A stretch of 64,000 bases of DNA from Tubiluchus corallicola (GCA_030141605.1 JAQGDQ010000304.1:62001-126000); one strand, 5' to 3'. Shown: positions 1 to 64,000, numbered from the stretch's first letter. Numbers and translations are program-made. The notes: generated from the sequence alone by a model not told the origin.

Positions 1-1961
1 GAAGACTCATACATCTCTTCCAAAAAACTCCTATCCTGAGCTATCTTGTACACTTCCAGATTTTGCCAGGCATACCATGGTGCCGATGAAGTCAACATCC
101 CATCATGCTCTATAATCTCATCCAGATAAGAACCCGTACGGTAATTAATATAACCATTCTCATACTGCCGCTCACTATAAACCCGCTGAGAATTCATAGC
201 ACTTTCAGGATCCAGGTAAGCATAGGCTAACATCGTAATACTCTCATGAAAAACCTGTCCCCCATGCCCCCATCCCCATGTAGGCTCACGCGAAAAAACA
301 TAATAATTATAAGAAGACTTCCCCTCTGGAGGATAAAACACCTGCCTCATCATGTTAAAACTACTGTAATACAGATATTTCTCATCCAGGCTTTTGAAAG
401 GTATCTCTCTTATATTACTAAATAAATCTTCATTATACGCTACATAACTATCCATGCTCTCACTTAGCAACCTCTCTGCCTCTTCAAGCAGCCCCCTCTT
501 CTCCTTCTCTTTCCCTCCCAACACCCTTACAAGTCGCACTTTCTCCTTGCCCTTTCTCCCAACTGTAAAGTTCCTCTTAAAAGCAATAAAACGGGTATAG
601 TTCGTACCTTTTGTATCATCGCCTTTTTCAATAAAATCTTTAAAAACAGACAACGGCATATTGGTCGCCTCACGTGAGTGCATTCCCATTTGCCCTCCAC
701 GGGTACTTGTAACGACATAGCCCAAACATGCAACCTCTTCGCCTTGATTATCCACAAAAAACTTATCATTGACACCATGTGCTATAAGACTATACACTCC
801 CTCTTTTGAATAGTCCCTCCTGTAAACATTATAAATGTCGCCATCTCCATCCCACTCTACTTTATAACCGTCCTGACACCTACTTACTCTTACATTTGTT
901 GGAATAGCCGGTAAATCATAAGCTCTTATATCAATATCCTGCCTCCTGCTTTTTTTTCTATCCAACGCTGTTATATTTGGAACCTTCGCGCTATAAGAAC
1001 CATACTCATCCATCTGCTCATTATAATACACAACAGTATAAACATCACCCTCTCTCACCTTTTCAAAATTTCCCAACTCAATACTGAAATAACCACTCTG
1101 TGGCATACTCTCCTGCGCAATACCCATTAAAGGAGAATTTTCAGTTATAAGCTTGTCCCCATCAATATATAACTGTAACCTTGCTTGAGGAGGACTAGCA
1201 ACCACCCTTTTACCATCCTTTAGAGCCCTGCCATTTACTTTGAAAACGCTCTCCCTGTCTATATAAACCCCGAATGGATACAAAAAATCCTCTTTCTTAT
1301 CAAAACAATGATACGCACCTTCAGAATCTGCCACTTTCGACAATAACAGAACATTTTGTACGCTGTCTGCATGTGGCAGCTTATGATGCAATGTCCAGCT
1401 ATCAGGATAATTTTCATGAAAAAAATGAACTCCATTAGTCGCTACAGAAAAATCAACATTATTAAAATCCCTGTAATCATTACTCATAAAAGGAAATAAC
1501 TCTATTTCAATATCCTTCCCCGTCTCATTGTGAATAGTAACATCCATTATTGAAGCACTACTGCTTTGTACAAGAAAAGCAACCTCCGCTTTAACTCCCT
1601 TAAATGGATAATAATGGAAAATAACCATATCTGGATAAGACATAGATATAACAGGTTCCATGTACATATCCTGCAGCTTATAGACCCACTTACCCTCTTT
1701 CTTAAAGCCCAGGTAAATATTACCTCCTTTCTGGGATGTGAACCCAATGCCCTTATCTTTCTCATAAAAACGGAATTCATACCCCTGGTCCAAAACAAAA
1801 TTAGACCGCTCCATCGCTGCTGCATAAGTAGTATACAAAGGTGTATGCTTATCAGCTTCAAGACTTGAAAGAAAAGGCTTGCCACTTTTATTACAACCTG
1901 GCAAAAACAAAACAACACCCAGTACAATCAGGATAGCTTTAGCTTTACAGTTCATTTTCAT
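1..1961 (-). CDS. Lipoprotein glycoside hydrolase, MGH1/GH63- or trehalase-like (alpha/alpha)6 barrel with an Fn3-like segment; 3'-partial (runs off the left edge)
   Basis: Hand-translated open frame from ATG 1961 to base 1, absent from the ORF track because no stop lies in the window. Starts MKMNCKAKAILIVLGVVLFLPGC (lipobox), has Fn3-like LPAIPTNVRV..YKVEWDG..YNVYRR, then YVFSREPTWGWGHGGQVFHESITMLAYAYLDPESAMNSQRVY..SSAPWYAWQNLEVYKIAQDRSFLEEMY. Family assignment is by motif resemblance only. Confidence 0.8.
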   Translation of the reverse strand, partial: MKMNCKAKAILIVLGVVLFLPGCNKSGKPFLSSLEADKHTPLYTTYAAAMERSNFVLDQGYEFRFYEKDKGIGFTSQKGGNIYLGFKKEGKWVYKLQDMYMEPVISMSYPDMVIFHYYPFKGVKAEVAFLVQSSSASIMDVTIHNETGKDIEIELFPFMSNDYRDFNNVDFSVATNGVHFFHENYPDSWTLHHKLPHADSVQNVLLLSKVADSEGAYHCFDKKEDFLYPFGVYIDRESVFKVNGRALKDGKRVVASPPQARLQLYIDGDKLITENSPLMGIAQESMPQSGYFSIELGNFEKVREGDVYTVVYYNEQMDEYGSYSAKVPNITALDRKKSRRQDIDIRAYDLPAIPTNVRVSRCQDGYKVEWDGDGDIYNVYRRDYSKEGVYSLIAHGVNDKFFVDNQGEEVACLGYVVTSTRGGQMGMHSREATNMPLSVFKDFIEKGDDTKGTNYTRFIAFKRNFTVGRKGKEKVRLVRVLGGKEKEKRGLLEEAERLLSESMDSYVAYNEDLFSNIREIPFKSLDEKYLYYSSFNMMRQVFYPPEGKSSYNYYVFSREPTWGWGHGGQVFHESITMLAYAYLDPESAMNSQRVYSERQYENGYINYRTGSYLDEIIEHDGMLTSSAPWYAWQNLEVYKIAQDRSFLEEMYES

Positions 1962-1981
1962 CCAATCAAATACTTAGTCGA

Positions 1982-2371
1982 CTACTTAATAATAATAAAT
2001 TGTGATGTACGGCCATCATTTAATATCAGATAAGGTGTCTCAAGCACCTCACTCTTGGCAGCACCCTTTTCTGCATACAGATAAAATATACCTGCTCCTT
2101 TCTTTTCCAAATCATCTGCTACAAAATATACTTTCCCCTCTTCATCAGTAACCTTAGCAGCCAGTGCATTTGCTCTGCTCTCCCCATCATCCCGTGAGCC
2201 ATACAACTCCACTGAAGCCCCTGTTACAGTACTTTCATCATCGTACTGCACTATTACCTGCAATTCCGGAGGCGTAAGATCCCCCACTGCCTCCTGCCTA
2301 AAAGTTCTGTTACAGCTTGCCAAAACAAGCCAGAAAACAAACAGTACTGCAAAATACCTTATATACTTCAT
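1982..2371 (-). CDS. Small PUL-associated lipoprotein (predicted beta-sandwich, carboxypeptidase-regulatory/prealbumin-like)
   Basis: 129 aa ORF with signal peptide and lipobox LVLASC; motif GASVELY...KVTDEEGKVYF; tightly packed between susD and the hydrolase. Confidence 0.75.
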   Translation of the reverse strand: MKYIRYFAVLFVFWLVLASCNRTFRQEAVGDLTPPELQVIVQYDDESTVTGASVELYGSRDDGESRANALAAKVTDEEGKVYFVADDLEKKGAGIFYLYAEKGAAKSEVLETPYLILNDGRTSQFIIIK

Positions 2372-2416
2372 GATGATAACTTATTATAATTTTAATATAA
2401 ATTGTACAAGTTGCTA

Positions 2417-3955
2417 TTATTGCTCATTACCTGCTCCTCCGAATGTGTATATGGGCAGACCGTGCAAATTTGATTCCTGAGCAGGCATAGGCAAATGCCT
2501 TACCGTTCCATCCTGCAAATCATCACTTCTCCTCCTGTCAAACCAGCCCAATAGCGGATAAGTGAGCAAAAGCTCTACATATCTCTCATAAAATAGCTTA
2601 TCCAGTATATCAGCATCCCCATCTGTTGCAAGAGGCAGTCCCCCTATGCTCCTGGTCTTATTAATAAGCGCTGCCGCACCAGATTTACCCTGCCTTATCA
2701 ACGCTTCCGCATGCAACAAATCACTCTCAGACTTCATCATAAACTTTATGGTAAACCTGTTCTCCACAGGATAGAAGCTGTCAAAAAGACGCTTGTATCT
2801 ATAATGCGACAATATATGATACCCACGTGACGATGCCTGCGCTGCCCAGGGAATAGCAGCACTACCACTATTAGGATCAACAACATATTCCATATAGTCA
2901 AAAAACCGACTATCATTACAATTATCTACAGGAGATAACTCCGTAACTCCTGAAGGAAAAGGAAATTGTGCGCTCTCAGGGGATGTATCTCCTGCCATCA
3001 TGTTAATAATTTTCTGACTGACACGATGCCATCCCCACACATGCGTATCATGATAGCTAAAGTTATCCCTATCTATCGCTATTCCACTAGTTCCATACTC
3101 ACCTTTCGCTTCCACCTGAAAATCGCTTTGTATACCCTTTGCTGCTAGTAACTCTACCTTTTCCCAATCAACACTGGCAATACCCGCTTTGTCACGTGGA
3201 GCATAAGCCAGGAACCTTGCCGCAGTTGTTGCTGCAAATTGAGCCAGTGTAACATTGGTAAATGCATCCATCTCTGGAAACATTACATAGCCATCCGTAA
3301 AGTTATTACTTTCACAAATATCTATCGCTTTTTCCAGACGCTCTACTGCAAAATCTATCAGATCCTGGTAAGTAGCAGGCCGGGAATAATCATAAGCCTC
3401 AAGATTACTGTTTTCATCAACAATATATCCCTTGTCATACAACAGCCCCAGATGGCCATGTAGCAGTCCCTGCAATATGTATCCATGAGCCAAAACAGAC
3501 TGTGTGTAATCTACTCCCCCTATTTCAACCTTTACCTCCTCCTCAACTATCTTTCTCACTATTGAATTGGGATATGCTGTAAGAGGATAGTACCCCATCC
3601 AGCCTCCATAAACAGGGAATAACACAAAATCAACCCCGTCAGGATTTGGCACCGACTCTCTAGGCAACTGATAATATGGAGCAGACCCCCATGAACCATA
3701 GCCCGTTATTGTGTAATCAGATGCAGGGGAAAGTGCAAAATTGGGATTGTTCCCAATTGATGTATTCCACCAGCCCTTGTATGTTCCACTCAATGCACCT
3801 GGAAAATTATGGACATTTCCCAGCACATAATCTATATCAGGATTATTATAATTCGGCACATCCAGGTCGGAAAAGAAATTACATGCACTTGCCAGCAGCA
3901 AAACGACTATCCCTACTGCTACTACTCTTTTATATATAAAGTTTTTAACTCGCAT
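2417..3955 (-). CDS. susD: SusD/RagB-family nutrient-binding outer membrane lipoprotein
   Basis: 512 aa with lipobox LLASAC, directly downstream of susC; SusD-type C-terminal motifs ESDLLHAEALIR, INKTRSIGGL, LFYERYVELL..GWFDRRR, HLPMPAQE. Confidence 0.9.
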   Translation of the reverse strand: MRVKNFIYKRVVAVGIVVLLLASACNFFSDLDVPNYNNPDIDYVLGNVHNFPGALSGTYKGWWNTSIGNNPNFALSPASDYTITGYGSWGSAPYYQLPRESVPNPDGVDFVLFPVYGGWMGYYPLTAYPNSIVRKIVEEEVKVEIGGVDYTQSVLAHGYILQGLLHGHLGLLYDKGYIVDENSNLEAYDYSRPATYQDLIDFAVERLEKAIDICESNNFTDGYVMFPEMDAFTNVTLAQFAATTAARFLAYAPRDKAGIASVDWEKVELLAAKGIQSDFQVEAKGEYGTSGIAIDRDNFSYHDTHVWGWHRVSQKIINMMAGDTSPESAQFPFPSGVTELSPVDNCNDSRFFDYMEYVVDPNSGSAAIPWAAQASSRGYHILSHYRYKRLFDSFYPVENRFTIKFMMKSESDLLHAEALIRQGKSGAAALINKTRSIGGLPLATDGDADILDKLFYERYVELLLTYPLLGWFDRRRSDDLQDGTVRHLPMPAQESNLHGLPIYTFGGAGNEQ

Positions 3956-3988
3956 GACTTTTATGTTATAATATTACTTTAACAATCA

Positions 3989-6900
3989 CTAAAATTTAAG
4001 TGTTACTGTAGCTGCTACATTACTGTACATAGGGTGTGAGGAAATATCAAAACGCGCAACCGTTGCCGATAAATCGTCTAGGTTTGAACTCGTAGTCGGA
4101 TTAGGGTCATAACCCGAATACTTTGTCAATACAAACAGGTTTCTAGCCACTATGCCAAGCTTTAGCTCTTTAATGGAAAGGCTCTCCAGATTAAATGTGT
4201 ACCCTGCAGAAATCTCCTGCAATCTTAAGTGTGTGGCATCCTCCACAAAATACTCATTATTCCACGCTCCTAACCCTTGAAAATATGCAAACGGCTTCTT
4301 CTCATTTTCAGGTAACCCCGATTGATCCAAAGGATGCCCTACCTGGTTCAACATAGAATACCTTCTCATATGATTGTAAACATCTCCTCCGTGCTGATAG
4401 GTAAACAGAGCATATACTGAGAACCCTTTATAGGAAAATGTCGTATTAAAATTAAGATTAAAATCAGGAAAAGTATTTCCAATTTTTCTCTCTATAAAAT
4501 TTCCATCATCATCTTTTATCTGTATAGGTGTCTCCTTGGGTGTACCTATCTCGCTACTTCTCGTTACATAACCATGATTATTTATCACAAAATAATCCTC
4601 CACCCGACCTCCGGCAGGCACTTGATTAGCCACATCATCAAGAGAACGCGCAAACACACGCCCGTACATATCTCCAACACTAGCCCCCTCTTCAACTCTG
4701 AACAAACCACCAGACACAAGAGCAAACCCGCCAGGAACATGCAACTCCACTATCTTCTGTCTTACCCTGTCAAACGTAAACCCAGCATCCCATGTAAAAT
4801 CGTTCTTGCTAATAAGATTAGCGTTCAATACCGCCTCCCATACGTTAGTCCTTAAATTCCCCGCATTTTGGTATTGTGTTAAAAACCCTGATGTAGCAGA
4901 AACTGGCACAGGCATAATCTGGTTTTTGTTATTTGTTAGTGCATAGGTAAGAGAAAAGTTAAATCTATTCAAAAATGAAACATCAAACCCTGTCTCTATC
5001 TCATCAGATACCCATGGCTGCAAGTTACTATTTCCCTTCACCTTAGGTGAAGAAACAGCACCGTTACTCAACTCTACCACCTCATACTGAGCCTCAAAAG
5101 GCGGGCGTAGCCCCGCCGTACCATAAGAAAGCCTTAGCTTTAGCTCATCTACCCCCTCTATTTTAAAATCCTCCGATACCCGATACGCACCGGATACTCT
5201 GTAAAACGGATTCCACCTCACATCTGAACCAAAGAGAGATACACCGTCATACCGCAATAAAGCATCAAAAATATACCTGTCTTTATAATCCAGAAACACC
5301 ACCCCCGAAAGGTTATTTGCAACTACCAGATACTCATAAGACCCAACGCTTAGCGTTGAAGGATCTGCCAGATCCAACGAACGTATAGTCATCCCCCCTA
5401 CAGCTAAGTTGCTGCCACTCCCGAAACTTGACTCATAAGCATTGTATTCATATAAATATTGCAATTTCCCTCTTACTGTAAAATCCCCTATCCGCTTTTT
5501 AATCATAGAGTCAAACTGCAAGGTTTGTGCATTTGTGATACTGTTCGACTTACTTATACTTCCGGTAGAGCGTGTTGTAGTTCCATCTCTTTGTGGGTTT
5601 AATTTCCCTTTGGGAGTCAAGTAAAATGAACTGCTCGCCGCATAATCTACTCCATAAGCAAACTTAAAATCAAGATAATCAACAGGTTTAAACTCCAAAG
5701 CATAATTCCCTATAAACCGGCTTCGTTTTGTTTCGTTCACCTGATTACTAATAGCATAAAGAGGATTTTCTATATGCTTATTTATTTGATTGGGATTTAC
5801 CAGATAAGGAGAGCCGTCCAGGTTATCTTGCAAAAAATCAACATCAGGATCAGCATAATACACCTGGTCCCACCCAAAATTTCTGTTATCTCTATTGGAT
5901 ATCGTATAATTATTAGATGCGGAAATATTAAGATGCTCCTTAATAGAGTGATCTAGATTTGCCTTAAAAGACATACGGTCAAACCCCTCATTTATCTTTA
6001 TAATATCAGGCTCATGTGTATACTGAGCAGATGTATAAATACCTGTTTTACCATCATCACTATTTCCTCTAAAGGAGATAGTATTCATCGTTTGTAATTT
6101 ATTCTCAAAAAGCTGACTATTTACATTTGTAGTTTTAGGATATACATTATCAAATATTCCATCCGCTGCCAGTTTATCGTAATTAACCTTCCCATCTTCA
6201 ATTATATACTGCGTAGCCTTCGTTTTAGGTGGCACATACCCTATAAAATTTGTTCCCATCTGGCTCCTGATAATTACTTCAGATGTTCCACTTCTCATAC
6301 TACGGCCTCTCTTGGTAACAATATTGATAACGCCATTTGCAGCTCTTGAACCGTACAGAGAAGAAGCTGCTGCTCCTTTTACAACCTCTATCTTCTCAAC
6401 ATCATCCATATTAATATCCGACAGTGAACCGTCAGACAATGTACCATCAATTATTATCAAGGGAGAAGAAGTTCCAAATATTGCTGTAGCTCCTCTCAGC
6501 TGTATTTCAGGATCCTCACCTGGTGCCCCTGATGCCTGTGTAATCTTTATTCCTGCCATCTTACCTGCCAAAGATGTCCCAACATTGACAGCGGGAACCT
6601 CATCCAGCAGATCATCATTAACTGACTCAACCGTAAACCCTAGCTTCTTTTTAGATGTCGCGCTCCCTACCCCTGTTACTACCACCTCATCCAGATCAAC
6701 AGCACCACTTCTCATCACCACATCAATAGAGGTTTGTCCACCAATAACAAACTCCTGTGGCGCCATTCCAATAAATGAAAACTGCAACTTCTCGCCATCT
6801 TTAGGAACACTCAGGTAATACTGGCCATCCACATCAGTAACCACACCGGTAGTCGTACCCATAATAAACACAGTTACTCCAGGTAGTGGCTCTCCAGACT

Positions 6901-7318
6901 CATCTGTTACCTTACCGGAAACACTCTTTGTCTGATCTTGTTGCTTGCTAGCAGCCTGAGGAAATAAAACAATCTTACGATCTGCTATCTCAAACCCTAC
7001 ATTACTCCCTTCAAAAAGTTGTGCTAATACGCTCTTTATACTAACATTATCTGCATTAATATCAACTCTGCGATTGGTGTCAATCAACTTCTCATTGTAC
7101 AGAAAGAAAAACTCGCTATCACTCTCAATCTTATCAAGAACATCCTCTACCCGAGCATCCATCATCGTAAGTGAAATACTGGCCGACTGCGAATAGGCAC
7201 CCCCTGCTGTCACATGCATTATCCCAAGAAAAAAGATAAACAACGCTGCACCCATAACTTTTTCGATCTTTATAATGGAGTAATTACTCAACCCATTAAA
7301 TACCCGATTGCTTTTCAT
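3989..7318 (-). CDS. susC: SusC/RagA TonB-dependent transporter with N-terminal STN signalling domain
   Basis: 1109 aa: STN domain (ISLTMMDARVEDVLDKIESDSEFFFLYN), carboxypeptidase-like domain (VSGKVTDESGEPLPGVTV), TonB box LDEVVVTG, plug motif DVEKIEVVKGAAASSLYGSRAANGVINIVTKRG, C-terminal F. Confidence 0.96.
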   Translation of the reverse strand: MKSNRVFNGLSNYSIIKIEKVMGAALFIFFLGIMHVTAGGAYSQSASISLTMMDARVEDVLDKIESDSEFFFLYNEKLIDTNRRVDINADNVSIKSVLAQLFEGSNVGFEIADRKIVLFPQAASKQQDQTKSVSGKVTDESGEPLPGVTVFIMGTTTGVVTDVDGQYYLSVPKDGEKLQFSFIGMAPQEFVIGGQTSIDVVMRSGAVDLDEVVVTGVGSATSKKKLGFTVESVNDDLLDEVPAVNVGTSLAGKMAGIKITQASGAPGEDPEIQLRGATAIFGTSSPLIIIDGTLSDGSLSDINMDDVEKIEVVKGAAASSLYGSRAANGVINIVTKRGRSMRSGTSEVIIRSQMGTNFIGYVPPKTKATQYIIEDGKVNYDKLAADGIFDNVYPKTTNVNSQLFENKLQTMNTISFRGNSDDGKTGIYTSAQYTHEPDIIKINEGFDRMSFKANLDHSIKEHLNISASNNYTISNRDNRNFGWDQVYYADPDVDFLQDNLDGSPYLVNPNQINKHIENPLYAISNQVNETKRSRFIGNYALEFKPVDYLDFKFAYGVDYAASSSFYLTPKGKLNPQRDGTTTRSTGSISKSNSITNAQTLQFDSMIKKRIGDFTVRGKLQYLYEYNAYESSFGSGSNLAVGGMTIRSLDLADPSTLSVGSYEYLVVANNLSGVVFLDYKDRYIFDALLRYDGVSLFGSDVRWNPFYRVSGAYRVSEDFKIEGVDELKLRLSYGTAGLRPPFEAQYEVVELSNGAVSSPKVKGNSNLQPWVSDEIETGFDVSFLNRFNFSLTYALTNNKNQIMPVPVSATSGFLTQYQNAGNLRTNVWEAVLNANLISKNDFTWDAGFTFDRVRQKIVELHVPGGFALVSGGLFRVEEGASVGDMYGRVFARSLDDVANQVPAGGRVEDYFVINNHGYVTRSSEIGTPKETPIQIKDDDGNFIERKIGNTFPDFNLNFNTTFSYKGFSVYALFTYQHGGDVYNHMRRYSMLNQVGHPLDQSGLPENEKKPFAYFQGLGAWNNEYFVEDATHLRLQEISAGYTFNLESLSIKELKLGIVARNLFVLTKYSGYDPNPTTSSNLDDLSATVARFDISSHPMYSNVAATVTLKF

Positions 7319-7356
7319 ATGAACCTATAATATTAATAATAAAAGTATATCCTACT

Positions 7357-7384
7357 CAGGAAAGCCTGCAAAACAGCTCTCCTG
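7357..7384 (-). promoter_or_regulatory. Stem-loop between fecR and susC (possible attenuator or processing hairpin)
   Basis: Minus strand reads CAGGAGAGC-TGTTTTGCAG-GCTTTCCTG, a 9-bp stem with one G:U pair, about 40 nt upstream of the susC ATG. Confidence 0.45.
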
Positions 7385-7440
7385 TCTCTTACAAACTATT
7401 TTGACATCACTATCACAAACTTTTATACACTCAAACCTGT

Positions 7441-8445
7441 TCATGACTTATATATAATAACCTGTTTGCGCCTAAACACTCCATCTTCCATCTTTGCTCC
7501 ATCTATAATCTTGTAACCTATAGGTGATGTCTTTTTCAAAAACATAAGAACCTCCTCTATAGAATTATTCTGAAACACTCCACGAAAAGAATATTGCTCA
7601 AGCTCCTTATCTTCAACTACTATGTCAATATTATACCATCGCTCCAACCTGTTTACAAGCTTTTGCATCGGGTCCCCTCTAAATACCAGCATCCCCTCCT
7701 TCCATGCCATAAACATGTCAGGCTTCGTCACGCTAAGAGACACCTCACTGTTGTTACAAACCAACCGCCCGTTTGGCTTCAACACATAAAAAGTATCCTG
7801 TTTCGACAAGTAACACTCCACCTCTCCTTCAACCAAAACAACTTCGGAGTAACTATCCTCAGGATAGGAAGAGAAGTTAAACTTTGTTCCGGTAACCTTA
7901 ACCCTTAAATCTTTTCCGGTAACTGAAAACGGACTCGCAGGATTATAAGCTACCTCCATATAAGCCTCCCCCGATAGATTAACATCTCTTGTCTTTCTAA
8001 ACGGCAAACTATAAATTAGCTTGGAATCACTGTTTAACCAACCAATAGTTCCATCAGGTAAGGTAAATCTGACTTTAGCTCCCGGAGGTGACACTATCAC
8101 TGCTGCTGCTTGATTATCAGAAAACTCATAACTGTCTGAATGTAGCTTTCCTACCAGATAAGCAATTCCTATAGACAACGGAATAAGGAGAATAGCTGCA
8201 GCAGTATAATACCACCGAACCAGCTTAGCCCGAAAGCGCTTCCCCAAATAACTATCTCTTACCCTTATAGCGTGATGTATTCTGGAAAGCACATGGTCTG
8301 GCGCCTCATACTTATCCATTTTTGCCTCCATCTCACGCATAAAACCTTCACGTAAGCACTCCTTAATAACAGAATTCTCCTCACTACATGACAACTCAAT
8401 CTGTGCAAACTCCACCTCCTTCTTTGACGCTTTTCCTTTAGAATA
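7441..8445 (-). CDS. fecR: FecR-family anti-sigma factor, apparently missing its first few codons at the junction
   Basis: TM helix WYYTAAAILLIPLSIGIAYL; FecR motifs FTLPDGTIGWLNSDSKL, VNLSGEAYMEV, VKVTGTKFN; C-terminal domain AWKEGMLVFR..LERWYNIDI. FecR-like sequence begins at YSKGKASKKEVE (Tyr at 8445). The 15 upstream codons from TTG 8490 are T-rich, contain no ATG and do not resemble FecR. Confidence 0.9.
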   Translation of the reverse strand, partial: YSKGKASKKEVEFAQIELSCSEENSVIKECLREGFMREMEAKMDKYEAPDHVLSRIHHAIRVRDSYLGKRFRAKLVRWYYTAAAILLIPLSIGIAYLVGKLHSDSYEFSDNQAAAVIVSPPGAKVRFTLPDGTIGWLNSDSKLIYSLPFRKTRDVNLSGEAYMEVAYNPASPFSVTGKDLRVKVTGTKFNFSSYPEDSYSEVVLVEGEVECYLSKQDTFYVLKPNGRLVCNNSEVSLSVTKPDMFMAWKEGMLVFRGDPMQKLVNRLERWYNIDIVVEDKELEQYSFRGVFQNNSIEEVLMFLKKTSPIGYKIIDGAKMEDGVFRRKQVIIYKS

Positions 8446-8659
8446 CAAGACACTATGAAGCAAATACACGAAAAAATAAAAGAAATTCAAAAGCAGGAAT
8501 TACAAGAAAACTGTACACAAGTGACACACAAACAAAACATGCAATCTAAAAACACTAGACAAAAAAGAGCCAATTTTACAAAAACTGTAAGACTGCTCAA
8601 CATACATTAAAAAGTACAGAATTAAGATCGAATTTCATAATAAAACAATTGAGCACCAG

Positions 8660-11300
8660 GCCTAAAAAGATTTACGGGACTGAAAATGTTGGATCTGCCC
8701 ACACAGTTCGTTTCTGGCTATAAAAATAATAAAAGATAACACAATGACTAGTTTTGCATTTTTTTTGAAATCTTTAAACTTCATGTGATGTGGATGTGAT
8801 TTTAACCGCTTTTCACTGGTTTTCGAAATAAACCCGCGACTTCCCATTCTCGACTGCAAAATATTGCACTTCAAAGCTGTTCCCTTCAATGTCTGTAACC
8901 AAGCTTGCACATTTATTCTCTATAAACTGGTGTGCGTTTTCAATATTCAGGTCAAAAGAGACTGTCAGCTCGAATATGAATAGATTCTTCAGCAGTTTAT
9001 TGAATACGTATATATATCAGTGATGGACGTAATTTGCAAACATTCAAGCGGTATTGTGGTAACTCTGTTGTTGTTAAAACCAAGTAAATAAACACGGACT
9101 ACGAAGCCAACTGAAGAAGTTGCTTATATCAAAAGCGAACTATATTATAATGGCGATGAGTGTATCGGGAGGAAAGTTTTACAAGAATGTAAGAAAATGA
9201 TTCAGTGGAGTTGGAGTAGGAGCACTTGGCTGTGGTTTTGTTGTCCCAGACAGTTGTAGCATAACGATTGCTGTATTGCACTTGAATTTCAAAACACTTT
9301 CCGGAAGAATATAAACCACACATGTAATCCAATCAATGCCAATTTGTTCTTCGACGAGGAATTCTAAAAAACGGCCTTGCATCACCAGAGTTTTGATTTA
9401 ATCTTGCCAATCAGAATGAATAAGTATGGACTTTAGCTGTTGTTTCTTTTTTTTGAGCTTAGCTGTGTTTTCTTCTGCCCGGCTGAGATCTGTGAAAGTG
9501 TTATCGCATTACAGTTGAAATTAATTTCTTATGTGACCGTGACCTTTCTTTGGAAAATTTATTGTCTAAAACCGATCGAACTAGTTCTTCACCCTCTTTC
9601 CTTCCTAACATATAGGCTAAGGCACGTGATCCTTTACAAATACGACTAAGTTGCTACAGGTTTAGGCCTTCAGAAAGAGACAAGAATGTTGATATTACAA
9701 GTGTGACTAGTGCGCACTAGCCGCGTAAAAAGTATTAGCTAAGGCACTTAGTTCATGTAGAAGACAATTGCACATATCACTGACAGGGCAAGCCTTAGAA
9801 AAAATGGAAAATATCCATCATAAATTTTAATTTTATATTCAAATCGGACATGATAGGAATCCATATTCTTCAAATCCGTCTGTTCGCCTCACTGTTCTTA
9901 ATTGTTAATTGCTGAACAAAGAAACTTATGGTCACTCTCAAACGATGAAGATATATTGATATCTGCTATGGATAAGTTAATTTCAACTGAGATCTTTTCG
10001 CAAAAAACTGTGATCTAATTTTACTTGGTTTGAGCTTTAGACCTAAGCAACTAGAATATTTTTGGATCTATTCTATGATTCTTTGATGGGTGTTCTTATC
10101 CAGTGTGATTAGGCAAAGCCAGCCGCAAATAGTAGTGTGATTCAATGTGATTCATGCGTAATTTCTGTTTCCAAGTATTCAGTCAGTGGATTGAAACACA
10201 ATAAGATAATTAGAGCAGATTTTTGACATAGGTTTGTATTTCACGAAGAAAATTTTCTTTGAAGTGTCAAGTTGATGAAGTCGTGGCGTACTGAGCCAAA
10301 AGCAACTTCCAGGTCAAACCACAGAAATGACATGATCTCTTTCTATGTTTCGTATAAGATATTATTTCATGTAAAATTAAAAACAGTATTATATTTCATA
10401 TAAGATATTATTTCATGTAAAATAAAAAACAGTTTCCACACAACCGTTCATTCCTTTTATAAAAGCTTTTCTGCAAGACAATGTTCAGGGTTCAACAGCC
10501 TATTGCATTTGATGAAAGACACAGTACGATCAGCAATAATTTGATGGAAAATTTTTAATACTCAGCTAGAGAGTGCTATCATGCTGAAGTTTGCAGGCTG
10601 ACAGGAGAACCTTTTACTAATACAGCTTTGACACAAAGAGCTGGGTGGTTCACAATTTTGCAGGACTTTTCTAAAAAGAGTAGCTAGTGTATGATGAGCA
10701 CATGGTAGGTTTTTTAACAATCCATAAGTTATTTTATCTAGTCCTGGACAAGAATTGGAATTTTTAGATTTCAAAACATTTCTAAGATCTGTTGGTCTTA
10801 CACCGAGTCCAAAATAAATGAATGATGATATGACCTTTACGCTGGAACTACTGTAAACTCGGTTTTATCGACCAGTGTTTTCTGGGAGACTGAAATATTT
10901 ACTTGGGTAGTAAATATCAGTTCTTTCTTTTTGAAAACTAAGGCGCAGGATCTCTTTCACATATGGGACCTCTAACAGCCTTTTTCGAAAAATTCAATTT
11001 CTGGTTATCGCTATTTTCTGTCTATCTTTGTTTAAGAAACTTGAAGCTATGCAGAACAGAAAGAATTGGTTTCTTTTTCTTGTGAACTGTGTTTCCCAAA
11101 TGTCTGTTTTCTAAGTTGATTTTCGAGTCTAAATTTAGCTTCAGCTACAGATTTTAATTCTCGAAAGTAACACTTATTTCATCCGTCAGTAGTTCGATGT
11201 TGGCATAGTTCTGGTTTAGAAACGAAAAAGCAATGCAGTTTGTTGACAAGTCTTTCCGTGTTGACTTACAGTTTCGGAACTGCGAATTTGACTATTTACC
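8660..11300 (-). mobile_element. Decayed RLE-type (R2/NeSL/HERO-like) non-LTR retrotransposon
   Basis: Frameshifted fragments in the expected order. RT: SCPGLDKITYGLLKNLP..PANFSMIALSS (10562-10774), WFDLEVAFGSVRHDFI (~10275-10320), IILLCFNPLTEY, decayed FADD motif (ITLLFAAG), GLKLKPSK. Linker QGRFLEFL..W..YILPESVLKF. Zinc-knuckle remnant AKC..ES..IL..RYTHRH. Endonuclease FELTVSFDLNIENAH..K and GSRGFISK. Outer boundaries approximate. Confidence 0.85.
10353..10433. repeat. Local direct duplication of ~35 bp inside the retroelement RT
   Basis: TATAAGATATTATTTCATGTAAAAT(T/A)AAAAACAGT at 10353 and again at 10399. Confidence 0.8.
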
Positions 11301-14300
11301 GAACAGTACGGCGGTAAATATAGTACTTGGGGCAGCATTGTGAAATTTCAAGGTTTTTTACGGAATCCGGTTGTATGCTTGACTGCTTTGAGTTTCGTGG
11401 CGTTTACAGACGATTAGACCGCGTTTTCTTTTTTGGGAGAAAATTTGTTAGATAGCGTCCAATTTACCAGGTAACCATAGTTGAAGCATGATTAATGTAA
11501 TTAACAGTGCAGGACAGATTTATTTATCGACTATCTTTTTCTGGTGCCACATCCAGAGTCTATAACTTCTCTTACCGGAGATCAAAACTTTTTATTCGTG
11601 GACACCGAGTAACACAATTACAAAATATTAATTTGTGTTTTAAACTGGAATTGCAAAATTTGCAAAGCAGAAACAACAAGCTATCCACACAACAGTGAAA
11701 GTAATCAAAGTACCATTGATGACGAAGTCACACCATATCCACCCTCATTAAATAGGCCTGCTGATGAGTGTTAGATTCCGGCTTGCAGTGTGCCGAAATG
11801 AGCAAAATATACCGATCGTTTCCATGGTACTAATTGCAACTTACCATCTAACATAAGTGAATGTACATTGAAAATTAACCACGGGAAGTTAAAGTAGGAG
11901 AAATCTAGCAGGCGTGCCAGCAGGCAAGTAAGACGCAAAAGGATTGCATCAATAATTTTTATTTGACAGCTACAGGAAACTGTTAAAGTGCAGTAAATTT
12001 ATAAATACAATTAGATTGTTACAGCCACATAAACTATATAGGATCTATTTCGTCAACAAATAGGCTATTTAAAATGAAACTTTTCCTGACGTTTACATGT
12101 CCATATAGATCTTAATTGGGATTTGGGAGTGAACCGTAAACACAAAAATTACAAACGAAATAAGATACGTAGCTGTTATCCAAGTCTTGCAAAATATGAT
12201 TATAAATCTGTAACTCTATTTGTACCTATGTTGAGCGAACTTGGCAAAGCCGGAGTCTGCACTATTACAGCAAATGACACTCCATATAATCCAAACCGGT
12301 ATAGATTGCAGATAAATGCACTAAAGATTAAAAGCAGCAATTTTCTCTGGCGGACTATCAGTGATCAGCAGGCTTCAACGAGCTACATTATTCTTAACGA
12401 TATCGCTACTGCGAGTCTGTCGGTGGAGTTTCAGTGGCATGGAAAACTCAAATTGCACAAAGAACAAATATAGTTAAAATGCCTTTCAGATAGAGCAAAT
12501 TTCTCATTCAAAACAAACTAGGTTGAAAGAATGAAATTCTGCTAAAAAACTTAACTGGACAAGCATTACATTTCAATATATATGTTTACGTAGAACCGAT
12601 TAAATTTATATAGCCTTAAAATGACATTACCTACGTCATACATTAACACTTTCAAACCGCAAATGTTTGAAACCCAGTTTTTTGAAACTTCAAACCTCCT
12701 CGAGTGTGGTCGTTACCCGTCTGCATAATTCTATCGATTTTCAGGCCAATTTGTTCGCCGCTGAATGTCATGACCGTTGACAGACGCCGAACCTATGGCA
12801 ACCAATGCTTGGGTGGCCCCGCAATTTGTTGTATTGTTTTAACCTTGGTATAGCAGCTTTAACAAGAAAGCGGCAGGCCTGACATGGAATGCGCTTTGCA
12901 GCCAATGATTGGCTTTTAAACGAACATTTTTTTCCAGAAAATATTTTTATAAAATTTCCAACTTGTGAATTAAAGATATTTTAAAAACTTTTTCTTACTC
13001 AGTCCAAAAAAGTTATTATTGTTAAGAATATAAAATACGCTCAGTTTCATCAGGAAAAGCAAGCTTGATCCAGTGATGCGTCCAATTTCTTTCGAGAGAA
13101 ACTAGAAAAAACAGATCAGTGCAATCCTTTGAAAAGAAAAACCATTTTGGCACTTGCATATACGAAATTAGAATACGCAAAAGAAATTTATCGGTAGCTC
13201 CGCCAGCCCGTGTCACCCAAGTCAAAAAGTTCACCACTTTCCTATTCAGTATAACGCTGAAACTAGGGATACTCTTCACCGAAGCTTCAATTTCCATAAA
13301 AAACAATGCACATCTACAGCAAGATACTTATTTTCTCCATTAAATTTTTGTGATGCTCCAAAATATGCGTGCGAATATTGAATAACTGTTTTCCAAGTGA
13401 CATAATATGTTATGAAATGTTTATAAATTCTCCTGCTCCCATAAATCATATGCATCACTTTCTGCTATTCGCATGCGTTTGAAACTAACTAACATAAAAG
13501 CCTGAAGGTGAGTTGTTTTCGTTGATTAATAAATACATTAAGTTCAATGGCTTTTACAGACACTAATTATTTATCAATAATTTCATTAAAAAGTAATCAT
13601 CCTTTCAACAACACGTGAAAGCGGCGAAATTTATCCCTTGCTGTCGACAGTGTATCAACTACGCTGCATAGTTAAAGCATATGATGAACACATGTCTATA
13701 AGTAAATGGACATCGCTATACATAATCAAAGCGTTCCATTAGGAATAGAGAATCATAATTACGCTGCCAATGAAGCCGTGAAGTGTTTGAACCACAAGAC
13801 ATCGCAGAAAAAAACAAAAAATACTAGCCATTGGCCATAATGTGCTGTATATACAAGGCTATACTAAATTTCCTACACGATTATGCAATATACATGTATT
13901 ATTCTGCCACAACACAAGATTATGACATTATAATACAAGCCTGTAACCCGTAGCCCTGTATGGAAAAATCTCCCGTTTAATCAGCAAATTAACAACACTC
14001 CAGTCATCTTAATAGGCTTCTGATTCTAATGAAATAGCTGTATTAGTGGATTAACTGAAATCTTGCAATCAATTAGGATTTGTGTTCACGCACAGGTTCA
14101 TAAATATATGGGTGTGCATATTCATGAATTCTTCGCTTAACCAGGCACACACGTAGTGCGATTATCGGCAAAATTAAACCCATGCAGGACAGTTTAGACT
14201 TCAAGAGCGAATCAAGAAATCTAAGATTGAATGTGAAAATACACACAGCGACACAAGGAGAAGTAAAACAGTTTAAAAAGATGCGCATGCCGATCAAGTC

Positions 14301-14497
14301 GTCAAAAGCAGAAAGGTGTTGGAGTTGCAAAGCTTATCGTCAGATTATGACAGCTTCCAAGCAGTATGAGGACTATTTTTTAGTAAACAAACGTTGCTTT
14401 CTATTAGTGTGATCTGATTTTGTTTTACGCAAATTGTTGCATCGAGCCCGCGCACACGAGCAGGATGAGTGTGTCGGACACAGCAGATATGCATATA

Positions 14498-14733
14498 TCG
14501 CTTGTATTGGCATTATGTTTTTAACACTACTGCAAACAGCAGTTTTTTAACTAATTATACATAATAAACATTTACTTGTATATATGATACTTGTGTATGT
14601 ACAGCAATAGCAATAAAGAATTGCCATTGTTATACATGCACAAGTATCATATATACAAGTAAATAATTATATATAACCAGTTAAAAAACTACTGTTTGCA
14701 ATAGTGTTAAAAACAAAATACCAATACAAGCGA
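14498..14733. repeat. ~236-bp imperfect palindrome (foldback/MITE-like)
   Basis: Left arm TCGCTTGTATTGGCATTATGTTTTTAACACTACTGCAAACAGCAGTTTTTTAACT...TTTACTTGTATATATGATACTTGTG pairs with right arm CACAAGTATCATATATACAAGTAAA...AGTTAAAAAACTACTGTTTGCAATAGTGTTAAAAACAAAATACCAATACAAGCGA; centre near 14615. Confidence 0.85.
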
Positions 14734-17286
14734 CATCAAATACAAACATTCCAATATAAAACTAATCCACGTATTATAAACGATATCAAACATCAAATAA
14801 TGCATACACTTATATAATACAAATTCGAACACGACGAATTTTGCGTTTTGTGTCCGAAAACGGCATTCAAGGAGATCACAGACTACTAATAAAACTCTGT
14901 GTCCCTTAATTGCGTCAGACAGTTTTTTTATAGCGTGCGTCCTGTAAAACTACTTCAGACAAACCGATCTTGCTCTAGTCTGCTGGTCCGAACAAAAATC
15001 TGAATCAGGCAAATAAAAAGGAGTCGTTTTGGTCACCTGTCTTCTATTACTGTTTACTGAGATTACCCATGACATCGTATGCTTCATACAAAAGTTTCGT
15101 CCGAGATAATTTGCATTAGACAATTAATTAATTAAACTGCAGACAGATTTTTTATCGTACTTGAAAAAAGACGAAGTCGTTTGAAAATATCTGATACTTC
15201 ACTTAGTAGGCACACTTTGAATTTCTATTACAATAAGTTTGTGATATTTATGTCTGGTACGCACATCTCAACTATTCTTACTGTGAGATCAGGCATACAT
15301 CAGTAAGTCAAATTTTGCTAATGTTGTGAATTTCGAAAATCTCCATTGTTTTCTCATCTAGCCAAAAACATTAAAAACACATAGCTAACAAGAATATAAT
15401 ATAAATGTGCCTGTTATTTACGCAAAAACAAAACTGAAGACAGTTTGCCATCAGGAAGGCATTTTTATTGATCATTTGTTCCATTAAAGCTTGATATAAG
15501 TAGAAATTCATTTTCCGTGGCAGCGACACGTAATTTCTAATTTATTACCATTGTGGGAAAATTATAACAGTGAAGTTTGCAGCAATACGGACTATCTTCT
15601 TGAGTTAATAACTTCATTTCATTCTTCTTTAAATCTCCGGAGAGAATGGACATTGAATTAAATACAGTTTTCTGAGGGTGCCACTATGTGTAGCAAAATT
15701 TCTGAATCTGAAAGGCAAATGTTTCTCTCAGATGTATCTATTATTCAAAACCCAGAGAGAAACAAAACTTTTCAAGCTTCCCAATTCAATTACCTAAATC
15801 AACTAATACATGTATGAAAGTTTAATTAACTACAAACTTGACACAATGCTTGCCCAGTTTTTAAGTAGAAACAAGTAATGTTTAATGATTTGTTCTGCAA
15901 AATTTTAGCATTGGAAAGGACTTAACCAAGCTTATACAAAACATTTTTTAGAAATGTGTGAATAACTGTCAGTGTATAAATTGTTAATTGGGTACACTTA
16001 GTAATGTCACAACAGAAAATGGCACATATAATTATAAATAACAAAGTGAGACAGTGAAATAGTATGCAAATATATCTATTCAGTGAATTCAAAGAATCGC
16101 ATCCTAATTTTTTATTCACCCAGATCACTACACTACTTTTATTGTCACAAACTTATTACTGGGTCTCTACATACCTGTACACCTGCTCAGTTCTATAACA
16201 TACTCTAAGCCTACTATATCGCACTACACTAAAGCCTTGATTTGACTCATGCAAGCCAACAAACAATTTAAAAAATGAAAACAGGAATGAATTGTTTTTA
16301 GAAACTTTTGGTGAGGCTCTATTGCAAGTTTCTTAAGCATCACAAAAGGTGTGTTAAAAAGTCGTGCAAACTTTTTAAGACACATTCTATAAAAAGTAAT
16401 TTATCAAAACATGCAACTAACCAAGTTTTCTGTTTAACCAGGTAAGCTGAAAACTGTGAAATTTAATTGCATGTCAAAAAATTACTGAAAAATTCTTTGA
16501 ACAAAGTAAACTTCTGAAAGTGTAATTCAACATCTGTTTCCAATTTCTGTTAAGATTTAAATTTCTTGCAAAGAATTTCCATCAGGAAGTAAGCTTTTGC
16601 TTTGGCTTTTTATAAGTTTGAACTTTTTAAAGCAGATTAAATAATTTATAAATGCCAGAGTGGAAGAGTAGGAGTGAACAGAACTAGTGCCTGCAGAAGA
16701 TTTACCAAGCATGAGCTAATGCTTGGGGTGACTATCCAATTTATATTCCAACTCAGGTACAAGTATTTACCCTACAGATCAGTTATCAATAACATAACAT
16801 ATAAAACAAGCTATATGGGAAACCCAAACAGGTACTGGTTTGGCACACCTTGTCTGACAGAACCAAAGAAAATTACACTGTTATGCAGCCAAAATTCAAA
16901 TACGATATTGTATACTTTGCATAGCAATTTACAGTTCTGAAAGTGGTCAGAGATCTGGTTCATGGGTATGCGTATGCATTCAAAATATGCTGCTAAAATG
17001 ACTTCTTCATAAAATTAGTCCAAATACCAAAAAAATATTTTGTGATTTAATTTTTTTTTAATGCAGATTGAACGAGTGTATCTTTTGATGTTCATCTTGA
17101 ACCAAACAAAGTTGTGCTAAACAGAGGAGACAATCTTTCTAAATCTAAAAGAACTCACTCAACAGAACAAGAAGCCCAGAAAACATGGATTTACAAGCGA
17201 TAGTCCTATATCCATGGTCATGAATCATAGTCCATGGTCAGTGATGTAATGTGAATTTTACAAATAGTAATGGACTATAGATTAAA

Positions 17287-17660
17287 TTAGGGGAAAGAAT
17301 TCTCTACCAGAAAGCAAATACGAATCGAATGGAATCGATTTGAACCAAACTTCAGTATTTCGGATTCGAATTGAGAATGAAAGATATTCGAACCACCAGT
17401 AAAAATTAGTCTTACAAAAATCATGCATATTACTCGATTTTGTTCTGCTGTCAAACCATAAATAATTGTGCACAGAAATCACTGCTAAATTATACTAATT
17501 GCATGATGTTTCAATCGTTTTAATGATAAAGTATGTATATGTCTGAAGTGCTGAATTATTCTAATTTACAGTTTTATGTTCGAATCAAATGCAAACTAAA
17601 AAAACTCGTGTGAATCGAATTCGAACATTCGAACTCGGAACGTTCGATGCTCACCCCTAG
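17287..17660. mobile_element. Degenerate MITE with TAGGGG...CCCCTA ends and TTCGAA-type subterminal repeats
   Basis: Begins TTAGGGG and ends GCTCACCCCTAG; clusters of TCGAA/TTCGA motifs near both ends. Confidence 0.4.
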
Positions 17661-18459
17661 ATTAGATAGACCCATTTGTTCTATAACTTTCGATTTTAGG
17701 CAATTCTTTTATTGACTGTCATAGATATATTTTTGCTAACAACATTTATTGCCTAAGATGTGTATATAACTTGAAGGTGTGTAGATGTTGTATACTGGTC
17801 CTTTTTGAGTCAGTAAACTACTATTCCCCAAGAATCTTCAGGATAAAACTGTGAGCAAAAGGAGCACTTCAAGGAAACTATCTGTCTTTATCAAAATGCA
17901 GTGAAAAGAGACAGCTAGGTTTAATATTGCAAAAAACCTTTGATGAGCAAAAGACTGCACAGATGACCCCAATAACACTAAATTACCCTCAGCTACTAGG
18001 GCGACTAGAGTAATTACTAGAGCAATAATAAGAACGACAGGATTATGGTTGCTGCACCACCTAACATATTAATACATTGCTGGGATAATCAATTTGTAAA
18101 GAAAGGAAGAGTAATGAACGAGTTAAATTTTTTCCAATACTATAAAGACATCCTACTTTTTCCAGAATATTCTGGAGTCTAGACACATCTAGCATCTACA
18201 ATCACAACATGCTCAAAAGACAAGTCGACACCAAATACTTTAAAAATCAAAAATATTTTAACTGTAAAACAGAATGCATTGTATAAGATTCCATAACCAT
18301 TTACTTTATCGGCGCGTAAGAACAATAATAAGCCTAGGGTAATACCTCAAGTATTCACATAAAACTACTACAGCTACAGAGTCTGGAGGTTTAGAACAAA
18401 GTTTACAGGGTAATAAATCAGCCTAGTGACTATACAAATTAAACTACAAAAAATCTTAC

Positions 18460-18617
18460 CAAATGAAGTCCTTGCAATGACTGCAGAATGTTGGCTGCTT
18501 AAAAAACCTCGCAATAAACTTGTGATCCTTCACTTCGTGCACATTTTTTTGTCTCAAAGCACCTTTTCTTGCAAATCCGCGGACAGTTTGACGGACATTA
18601 TTTTCCTCGTCCGCCAT
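18460..18617 (-). CDS. PRKCA: Conventional protein kinase C (PKC alpha/beta/gamma co-ortholog), first coding exon: pseudosubstrate and start of C1a
   Basis: [52 protein letters not shown](W), followed by a GTAAG donor in phase 2. The exon extends 5' as UTR to an acceptor TTTCTTACAG at 18799. Not in the ORF track. Symbol denotes the family, not one-to-one orthology. Confidence 0.95.
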
Positions 18618-19399
18618 GTCTGCCTTCGGCAGGTGGAAGTGATGACCGCATACTGCGCAGACTCGTGCTGACGACGCCTGACGTCCGAATATGCGCCAGT
18701 CTATCAGGGTGCGAAGCTGCAGCTGACTGAGCAGGGTATTGCTACGGTAGTAGTGGGTTTCCTGGTTGTTAGTAGAAAGGGTTAAACACTGATGTTATCT
18801 GTAAGAAATATAAGATAAACTGCTTTATAGTTTTCTGCTTTTAAAAAGTTGAAAACCGAACAAGTTGTTTATTTGGAAACACAGTACTAGAGCAGTCATG
18901 AACGTGAGCATTCAAAGAAAAGCAATGGTCGCTGAGCCCAATTCGCAAATGAACGGGTGTCTACCGAGAAAGTGGCTTCATTGCGGCTTTTAGTTCATAC
19001 ATTGAACCTGGCCACAGTGATGTAGAAGTTGTATTCTAAATTTCACATGCTTCCGGAATATTACAATTTAGCTATTGAATTGAATTTATATTTTTGTAAG
19101 TTATGTTGTCAGTTATAGTAGCCACCTGTAGGAGGAGCACCAGAAAGCACTTGCTCCTTCCTCCATACAACAACTTTTGACAAATTTTTATTAGTCAAAT
19201 AATGGATTTTTGTATTGATTGTCTTCGTTGTAAAAAAATAAATTTATTCTATTCTGTTATCTCGTTGATAGAGAATGCATAGGCATCCGAATGTTCTTGA
19301 GAAGACATGTAAGTTGTGACAATAAATAATTAATGATATTTAGGCGTAAGTAAAAAAGGCTAAAAAAATCAAATAAAATCCGAAAATCCAATTTTAAAG

Positions 19400-19673
19400 T
19401 GGCTCCTCATTTGAAAGAAAAGATCCCTGTTTGAGGCCATCTATTTGAGACATATGGCCTTTGTTTGAGGCCCTTTATTAGAGATAGGAACCTTTTTTTG
19501 GAAGCCCTTTATTTGAAATATAGGTGCCCCAGCTGTGCAAAAGTTGCTGGAATATAATTATAACAAGTAAAGAATATTCGAGACAAGTGCGAGCAAATTA
19601 GTGGGTGGTTCCGTCTGAGAGGACCCCATGATTTCATTAGCCTAGGGGTCCCAAAAGGTCATAATCCGGCCCT
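19400..19673. repeat. ~33-bp tandem units plus MITE-like terminus
   Basis: TGTTTGAGGCCATCTATTTGAGA / TGTTTGAGGCCCTTTATTAGAGA / TTTTGGAAGCCCTTTATTTGAAA; ends TAATCCGGCCCTG, resembling ends of non-autonomous hAT-like elements. Confidence 0.45.
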
Positions 19674-26595: not shown

Positions 26596-63106
<36,511 letters not shown>

Positions 63107-64000
63107 CTGTAAAATCATAATTAAAATAGAAGCTAAAGAGTGGTGATTAATCATTAAATATAACATACAGCTATCAAACTGTAAAATCCATATTGGTTGA
63201 CAACACTTGGAAAACATTAACAGTCCCAAAATCATGTTCTGCAAAAGAATTTATATTTGATTCCCAGACTCAAATAATACCAAAAAAGTAATCTAAAAGG
63301 TGTTTGCTAACTGTTAAACACTTTAAAAATAAGGCCCCGAATAATGACTATTTCTGTCATTCCTTAGCTAAAGATGAGCAAGAAGGCCGTATATGGCTAA
63401 CATTCAAAATCTTGCCTCTTATACTGTCGATTGGTAACAAATAACACAGCTAACGAAAGATACGGTAACTTGACAAAAAATAATCACTTTTCAGACAGAG
63501 AAGAAACAAAACCTTTCTTAGTTTTACATCTCAAATTTACCACGAACCCTCAGCGGCTCACCCACTATCATGGCCAAAGACGCAAGAGACTAAAAGCCTA
63601 CTTATTATTAATTAGTATCCCCACCCCATTTGAGTGTATATTTGCACATCCATTTGGAGACTTAGTGCATTGTAAAAAAATAGATAGAATAGGATTGACA
63701 AGACCGCCATATGTGATAAGAATTAGGACAGCTCTGGAAAGTTTTAAAAATGAGAAAACAAATCTCTTTAGGGCTTACAATTTTCAAGTTTTTGGAAAAC
63801 TAATCAGAAATTTATACATATAAATTTTTGTGGAGTTTTCATCATTAGTTGGTTGCCAATTCACAAGATTACAACATTCACAGCGTAATTGAGTAACCAC
63901 TGTGGTCTTCAATAAATTACTTGAAGGGTTGATTATTGTAACATTAAATGTCTTGTGATTTTCCATTTTGGGCAAAGTTAAGTTATGAGGTGGCAACAAG

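What the first reader, a model, noticed from the sequence alone, without database searches (positions are those of the whole stretch)
8400..8700. Seamless Bacteroidota-to-animal junction that cuts the 5' end of fecR
Seen: five intact, tightly packed bacterial genes end at ~8445; 55 kb of spliced animal DNA follows with no N gap. FecR-like residues stop at YSKGKASKKEVE, no ATG lies upstream in frame, and no ECF sigma gene is present. Known: Bacteroidota fecR plus STN-susC loci normally carry an adjacent ECF sigma. Inference: the break lies within the first ~10 codons of fecR. Either this is a chimeric or concatenated assembly of a host and an associated bacterium (more likely, since the bacterial genes show no decay), or a very recent >8.4-kb lateral transfer into an animal chromosome.
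Basis: partly seen in the sequence, partly recalled or inferred. Interest (0 to 1): 0.85.

Follow-up and report, generated by a model that had tools for sequence, protein, structure and literature searches.

The report
Bacterium-animal assembly misjoin, not transfer
A piece of a co-sequenced bacterium's genome is glued onto an intron of an animal kinase gene in this assembly, but public data show each side continuing into its own DNA at different depths, so the join is an assembly artefact, likely from a rare chimeric read, and not gene transfer.

Summary
The junction is in the sequence, but it is a misjoin. Contigs of four public runs fix it: bacterial DNA ends at 8441, animal DNA starts at 8443, and base 8442 fits neither. 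In run X1 a 58,271-bp contig (depth 59) covers 1-8441 and runs on 42,650 bp past the break. In X2 and X3 the sequence beyond the break continues the fecR frame and fits the FecR family N-terminus. Animal contigs start at 8443 in three runs from two samples and run on leftwards into other sequence. No listed contig bridges the join. The bacterial:animal depth ratio is 0.32 in X1 and 3.0 in X2 of the same sample, which linked DNA should not give. The break also strands exon 1 of a protein kinase C gene: no further exon lies in the window. About 13 fecR codons are lost; an ECF sigma gene sits next to fecR in 61 of 65 related loci. The donor is Marinilabiliales-like, and the animal is an unidentified invertebrate. 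Raw long reads could not be seen, so the chimeric-read cause is inferred. No earlier scan note on such a join was found.

The parts
3..1961 (-). Bacterial ORF, likely a GH63/MGH1-type glycoside hydrolase; its 3' end runs off the window
   Evidence: 653 aa, open end. No Pfam or NCBIfam hit. The ESM Atlas lead is a 902-aa Bacteroidota amylo-alpha-1,6-glucosidase/GH63 cluster, score 0.86, 185 of 256 features (a lead only). Relatives at 39-54% identity in 3 metagenome loci.
1982..2371 (-). Small bacterial ORF, likely a lipoprotein (129 aa)
   Evidence: a signal-peptide/Cys pattern is seen by eye. No family hit above cutoff.
2417..3955 (-). Bacterial ORF in the SusD position, likely a SusD-like lipoprotein (512 aa)
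   Evidence: It lies directly after susC. No Pfam or NCBIfam hit, so the name rests on position and size.
3989..7318 (-). SusC/RagA TonB-dependent transporter with an N-terminal STN domain (1109 aa)
   Evidence: PF07660, PF13715, PF07715; TIGR04056 at 558.5 bits, above the 368.25 cutoff.
7441..8441 (-). fecR anti-sigma gene, cut inside about codon 14 by the misjoin
   Evidence: PF04773 + PF16344; 33-49% identical to 120 listed homologs; N-terminal alignment. Bacterial contigs fit up to 8441 and run on.
8442..8442 (.). Single base (A) at the join, matched by neither partner; no microhomology
   Evidence: Bacterial contigs end their match at 8441 with a different next base (X2, X3 loose ends). 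Animal contigs begin at 8443 in X1, X2 and X4.
8443..18459 (-). Animal non-coding DNA, inferred to be the first 10 kb of PKC intron 1, with dispersed repeats
   Evidence: GT donor at 18459-18458. No further PKC exon is found by tblastn with 5 PKCs or by a PKC profile over 3963 six-frame segments. Animal-depth contigs cover it.
18460..18617 (-). Exon 1 (coding part) of a conventional protein kinase C, left without its other exons in the window
   Evidence: About 80-85% identical to PKC-beta/alpha N-termini; donor site read directly.
27346..63115 (-). Spliced non-muscle myosin II heavy-chain gene (5' end beyond the window)
   Evidence: 33 collinear tblastn matches spanning residues 99-1925 of a 1966-aa myosin, about 59% identity.

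Best explanation
The window joins two unlinked genomes at 8441/8443, a Bacteroidota SusC/FecR locus and an intron of an animal protein kinase C gene, each of which continues into its own DNA in public contigs; the join likely came from one or very few chimeric library molecules that the assembler followed where animal coverage was thin. Shown: the position of the join, native continuation on both sides, different and library-dependent depths, and no listed bridging contig. Inferred: end-to-end ligation of a bacterial and an animal fragment during library preparation, with the unmatched A possibly an A-tail remnant. Also inferred: the bacterium is Marinilabiliales-like and was co-extracted with the animal, and its own fecR is whole, with an ECF sigma gene upstream.
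For: (1) X1: a 58,271-bp contig at depth 59.2 fits 1-8441 and runs on 42,650 bp. X2: an 8,459-bp contig runs on 6,688 bp. (2) X2 and X3 give the same 30-nt loose end behind 8441. Read by hand in the fecR frame it has no stop, and it matches the commonest family residue class at 4 of the 6 columns up to the conserved aromatic residue, against 1 of 6 for the window's version. (3) Animal contigs start at 8443 and extend left by 406 (X1), 53 (X2) and 152 bp (X4, a second sample) into sequence unlike the window. (4) No joint across 8441/8443 among the 5 joints listed in the zoomed call, and no listed record bridges it. (5) Single-contig depth, bacterial vs animal: X1 59 vs 185-202, X2 21-23 vs 6.6-8.8; ratios 0.32 and 3.0 within one sample. 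(6) Both flanking genes are cut: fecR, and PKC after exon 1. (7) Four window bases (522, 7367, 10791, 11441) are absent from the full-depth contigs over them, while four X1 contigs between 11633 and 20000 show 0 differences, as thin read support near the join would give. (8) The bacterial block is 97.4% coding with open frames.
Against: Only assembled contigs could be laid. They drop rare variants, so the chimeric read itself was not seen, and a rare real junction is not formally excluded. Tables were truncated (46 records and 33 loose ends not shown). X1-X3 are one sample, possibly the source of the assembly; only X4 is independent. The letters of the three animal continuations were not displayed, so I could not check that they agree. 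A +1 base is not among the artefact signatures in the parts of bioRxiv 10.64898/2026.06.24.734375 that I read (blunt ends; offsets -6, -1 and about +35 to +40), so the A-tail step is my inference. An assembler or scaffolder join without a chimeric read would leave much the same picture.
Confidence: 0.96

Rival explanations
1. A real, inherited lateral transfer: more than 8.4 kb of Bacteroidota DNA integrated recently into PKC intron 1 of the animal's chromosome (fixed or heterozygous).
For: The join is seamless with no N. It lies in an intron, where an insertion could be tolerated. One unmatched base without microhomology would also fit end-joining repair.
Against: An inherited copy would sit at about 187 (or about 93 if heterozygous) in X1 and keep the same ratio in every library. 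The observed ratios are 0.32 and 3.0. Animal and bacterial contigs both pass the break point unbroken, and no listed contig has the joined form. The window's own bases at 522 and 7367 are in no listed contig.
Confidence: 0.01
2. A real but rare (somatic or mosaic) integration in a few host cells, captured by one long read and assembled.
For: Contigs drop rare variants, so cannot exclude it. The four window-private bases suggest that few molecules support this stretch.
Against: There is no positive evidence. Single-molecule inter-species junctions are a measured library artefact (human-fly singleton junctions, bioRxiv 10.64898/2026.06.24.734375, passage). I saw no mobile-element ends or repeats at the break.
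Confidence: 0.015
3. The window's source simply concatenates two separate records (a bacterial contig and an animal contig) without a gap marker.
For: A blunt join without homology fits a concatenation as well as a ligation.
Against: Neither side stops at a repeat or an assembly dead end: unique contigs cross both break points in the public runs. The private bases on both sides within about 11 kb point to one thinly supported molecule. The assembly's contig table could not be seen (no genome held). This is still an artefact, so it does not change the verdict.
Confidence: 0.015

Closest known systems
Inter-kingdom chimeric sequences in genome assemblies (FCS-GX TRIM/FIX class; PMC10898089, passages read)
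   Same: One assembled sequence with a prokaryotic span fused to a eukaryotic span. That paper treats such cases as contamination to be trimmed, and notes that chimeras are under-reported when close relatives are missing from the database.
   Different: Here there is no N spacer, and the donor is only about 40% identical in protein to its nearest catalogued relatives, which would make database screening weak.
Single-molecule inter-species ligation chimeras of sequencing libraries (bioRxiv 10.64898/2026.06.24.734375, sections 5 and 9 and passages read; PMC13141652, passages read)
   Same: End-to-end ligation joins unrelated fragments, also across species, with no homology at the join.
   Different: Those papers measure read-level artefacts in human, fly and microbial standards. 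I did not see the raw read here, and a one-base insertion is not a signature named in the parts that I read.
Contamination mistaken for lateral transfer, as in the tardigrade genome (reviewed in PMC8862208, passages read)
   Same: Intact bacterial genes from co-sequenced microbes, with coverage unlike the host's.
   Different: A single seamless junction, not a genome-wide claim.
Real bacteria-to-animal integrants, e.g. Wolbachia insertions in insects and nematodes (named in PMC10898089, passage read)
   Same: Bacterial DNA contiguous with animal DNA in an assembly.
   Different: Real integrants are supported by spanning molecules and host-like depth (established criteria, recalled). Neither holds here.
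Bacteroidota ECF sigma / FecR / STN-SusC / SusD polysaccharide-utilisation loci
   Same: fecR, STN-susC, a SusD-position lipoprotein and a likely glycoside hydrolase, in the usual order.
   Different: The ECF sigma gene and the fecR start are missing from the window because of the misjoin. The SusD-position protein has no family hit.

Membership tests
Inherited bacteria-to-animal lateral transfer | Independent molecules or contigs span the junction | tested here: not met
   No listed contig or joint bridges 8441/8443 in 4 runs; contigs only, tables truncated.
Inherited bacteria-to-animal lateral transfer | Depth of the foreign block equals host depth (or half) in every library | tested here: not met
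   Ratios 0.32 (X1) and 3.0 (X2) in one sample; 2.0 in X3 from a single animal contig.
Inherited bacteria-to-animal lateral transfer | The host locus is interrupted at the insertion site | tested here: not met
   Animal contigs pass 8443 into other sequence in X1, X2 and X4.
Inherited bacteria-to-animal lateral transfer | Decay, introns or compositional drift towards the host (older transfers only) | tested here: not met
   97.4% coding, open frames, 40.5% GC with strong skew. Not diagnostic for a very recent event.
Inherited bacteria-to-animal lateral transfer | Junction PCR, FISH or Hi-C linkage | not testable with these tools
   Needs tissue or raw contact data.
Inter-kingdom chimeric contig (misassembly) | Both partners exist with their own native continuation in the sequenced material | tested here: met
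   The bacterial contig runs 42,650 bp on, with an in-frame FecR N-terminus; animal contigs run 53-406 bp on.
Inter-kingdom chimeric contig (misassembly) | Coverage step at the join that varies between libraries | tested here: met
Inter-kingdom chimeric contig (misassembly) | Join supported by only one or a few raw reads | not testable with these tools
   Only assembled contigs are held for these runs; the four private bases are indirect support.
Bacteroidota ECF sigma/FecR/STN-SusC/SusD locus | FecR with FecR and FecR_C domains directly upstream of an STN-bearing SusC | tested here: met
Bacteroidota ECF sigma/FecR/STN-SusC/SusD locus | Adjacent ECF sigma gene | tested here: inconclusive
   Absent from the window. 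Adjacent in 61 of 65 related fecR-susC loci with room upstream. The donor's own upstream DNA could not be read beyond 30 nt.
Bacteroidota ECF sigma/FecR/STN-SusC/SusD locus | SusD-family lipoprotein after susC | tested here: inconclusive
   A 512-aa ORF lies in the right place, but it has no Pfam or NCBIfam hit.

The most novel reading that the evidence does not exclude
A living Marinilabiliales-like associate of this invertebrate integrated more than 8 kb of a polysaccharide-utilisation locus into PKC intron 1 in a minority of host cells by end-joining, and a long read caught this ongoing somatic bacteria-to-animal transfer from a donor group not known (to me) as an intracellular symbiont.
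Probability: 0.02. Interest if true: 0.8.

Novelty: not a real feature. Interest (0 to 1): 0.05.

Why it matters
Biologically it does not: it is an assembly error. Practically, this assembly needs a cut at 8441/8443. As it stands it carries at least 8.4 kb of bacterial genes that an annotator could call horizontally acquired, a fecR with a false N-terminus, and a PKC gene separated from all exons after the first. It is also a clean example that a gapless, intron-located, homology-free join with intact bacterial genes is not evidence of transfer until depth and native continuations are checked.

Tried and rejected
Whole-genome look-up: none is held, so contig or AGP boundaries and the rest of the PKC gene could not be checked. 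First genome-contig scan with the single FecR: 32 pattern matches, none confirmed; the alignment query then gave 450 relatives, of which 80 were kept. No close relative of the donor was found: FecR at most about 46% identity in those loci, ORF1 39-54% in 3 metagenome loci, SusC about 28-30%. So the donor is placed only as Bacteroidales/Marinilabiliales-like. No RNA holder was listed, which says nothing about expression. Repeat or transposon ends at the break: only short matches, likely chance. A TTG start at 8490 or 8448 that would make fecR whole was rejected: both lie in DNA held by animal contigs. My first script for upstream ORFs missed many sigma genes and was replaced by tblastn. In one search, 7 of 80 loci were dropped for having under 1000 bp upstream; 67 of the remaining 73 had an adjacent sigma. 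The animal was not identified: best named myosin and PKC hits span amphioxus, coral, fish and nematodes, and no tree was built. Four stop codons fall within the 33 myosin matches; I did not examine them, and overrun into introns is likely. Scan look-ups near the site and by words found no note on such a join (the four partial word matches concern bacterial duplications and a gene relic).

Full report
Observation. The window has no N. Positions 1-8441 carry five minus-strand ORFs covering 97.4% of the block, at 40.5% GC and GC skew -0.295; 8443-64000 has 34.5% GC and skew -0.059. A Markov change-point falls at 8436. The bacterial genes are, in transcription order, fecR (PF04773, PF16344), an STN-bearing susC (TIGR04056 above cutoff), a 512-aa ORF in the SusD position, a 129-aa ORF, and an ORF that runs off the window and resembles GH63-type hydrolases as a lead only. 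The named FecR relatives are mostly Prolixibacteraceae, Marinilabiliaceae and unplaced Bacteroidales at about 37-46% identity. The right side is animal: exon 1 of a conventional PKC at 18460-18617 with a GT donor, and a non-muscle myosin II gene with 33 collinear matches between 27346 and 63115.

The fecR break. In an alignment with 94 homologs, 74 have exactly 12 residues before the aromatic residue that aligns with the window's Tyr, and the window's residues upstream of it do not fit the family. No ATG lies in frame. An ECF sigma gene (Pfam-checked for 6 of the 8 seeds) lies within 1.5 kb upstream of fecR in 67 of 73 related loci with room upstream, and in 61 of the 65 that also have susC downstream; the window has no hit.

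A second broken gene. PKC is transcribed towards the junction, and only exon 1 is present. tblastn with five full-length PKCs and a PKC profile over 3963 six-frame segments found nothing else of significance. The junction therefore lies about 10 kb into what is most simply intron 1. This fits a misjoin, but by itself it also fits an intronic insertion.

Sequencing data decide it. Four public runs hold the stretch or part of it: X1-X3 (one sample, flagged as a possible source of this DNA) and X4 (another sample and study). All are assembled contigs. In X1 one contig of 58,271 bp at depth 59.2 fits 1-8441 with 2 differences and runs on for 42,650 bp past 8441 and 7,180 bp before position 1; in X2 an 8,459-bp contig runs on for 6,688 bp. 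X2 and X3 give the same 30-nt loose end behind 8441. Translated by hand in the fecR frame, it has no stop and ends in Arg-Tyr-Ala before the window's Lys-Gly. It matches the commonest residue class at 4 of the 6 family columns up to the aromatic residue, where the window's version matches 1 of 6. The real bacterium thus has an ordinary fecR, and the window's Tyr codon (8443-8445) is animal DNA. On the other side, contigs begin to match at 8443 in X1 (depth 162.8), X2 and X4, and extend 406, 53 and 152 bp leftwards into sequence unlike the window. Base 8442 is matched by neither side, and there is no microhomology. None of the 5 joints and none of the 32 records listed in the zoomed call crosses the break (46 records were not shown).

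Depth. Single long contigs give bacterial vs animal depths of 59 vs 185-202 in X1 and 21-23 vs 6.6-8.8 in X2, ratios of 0.32 and 3.0; X3 gives 2.0 from a single animal contig. Contig depth is not a copy number, but physically linked DNA in one sample should not change its ratio about tenfold between libraries, whereas two genomes extracted or sheared with different efficiency can. Four window bases (522, a silent third codon position; 7367, intergenic; 10791 and 11441, intronic) are absent from the full-depth contigs over them, while the listed X1 contigs between 11633 and 20000 show no difference. I read this as thin support, perhaps one molecule, for about 11 kb around the join; this is inference.

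Mechanism. Shown: two unlinked genomes are joined at 8441/8443. Inferred: a bacterial and an animal fragment were ligated end to end in a library, and the assembler followed that molecule where animal coverage was low (animal depth was about 7 in X2 and lower in X3; their single-base gaps look like long-read errors, but the library type is not on record). End-to-end ligation and singleton inter-species junctions are described as library artefacts in bioRxiv 10.64898/2026.06.24.734375 (sections 5 and 9 and passages read), and ligation-made chimeric nanopore reads in PMC13141652 (passages). The idea that the extra A is an A-tail remnant is mine, from recalled library chemistry; the parts I read name blunt joins and other offsets, and the preprint's supplementary figures on artefact classes could not be seen. 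A plain concatenation of records is a minor rival with the same verdict.

Limits. Raw reads were not available, and contigs drop rare variants, so a rare somatic integration cannot be formally excluded (about 2%). An inherited transfer is contradicted. The letters of the animal continuations were not displayed. The assembly's contig table was not available, so how far the bacterial block extends left of the window is unknown.

Comparison and verdict. This is an inter-kingdom chimeric sequence of the kind that FCS-GX flags for trimming (PMC10898089, passages), and of the kind that has been mistaken for lateral transfer before (PMC8862208, passages). It fails the tested criteria of a real integrant. 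Other notes on this genome describe animal genes of an unidentified invertebrate, which agrees with the bacterial block being the foreign part. Not a real biological feature; interest 0.05.

Noticed in passing
window 10150-10870 (minus strand): Decayed fragment that looks like a non-LTR retrotransposon reverse transcriptase (recalled motif resemblance; stops and frameshifts; a 46-bp tandem duplication at 10344-10433). No NCBIfam hit for the longest open piece.
   Followed up: partly
window 8598-8650, 14620-14800, 17320-17660, 19380-19675: Dispersed animal repeats. Summed depth in X1 is about 10 times the unique level at 8598-8650 and several thousand times at about 17420, so the latter is a very high-copy short element.
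   Followed up: no
window 1-8441: The co-sequenced bacterium assembles into long contigs in X1 (58 kb here), and its proteins are only about 30-50% identical to catalogued relatives, so it may be an undescribed Marinilabiliales-like associate recoverable as a genome bin. The SusD-position protein escapes Pfam and NCBIfam.
   Followed up: partly
window 18460-27346: The non-muscle myosin II gene and the PKC gene are tandem neighbours on the same strand, about 8.7 kb apart (last myosin match to PKC start).
   Followed up: no
window 8706 (run X4): A loose end in X4 reads like an Illumina adapter remnant (recalled sequence), a data-quality note only.
   Followed up: no
window 21515-21623, 22002-22065, 28524-28622: Simple repeats: (ATA)n, (CT)n and a CT-rich 36-bp duplication.
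   Followed up: no
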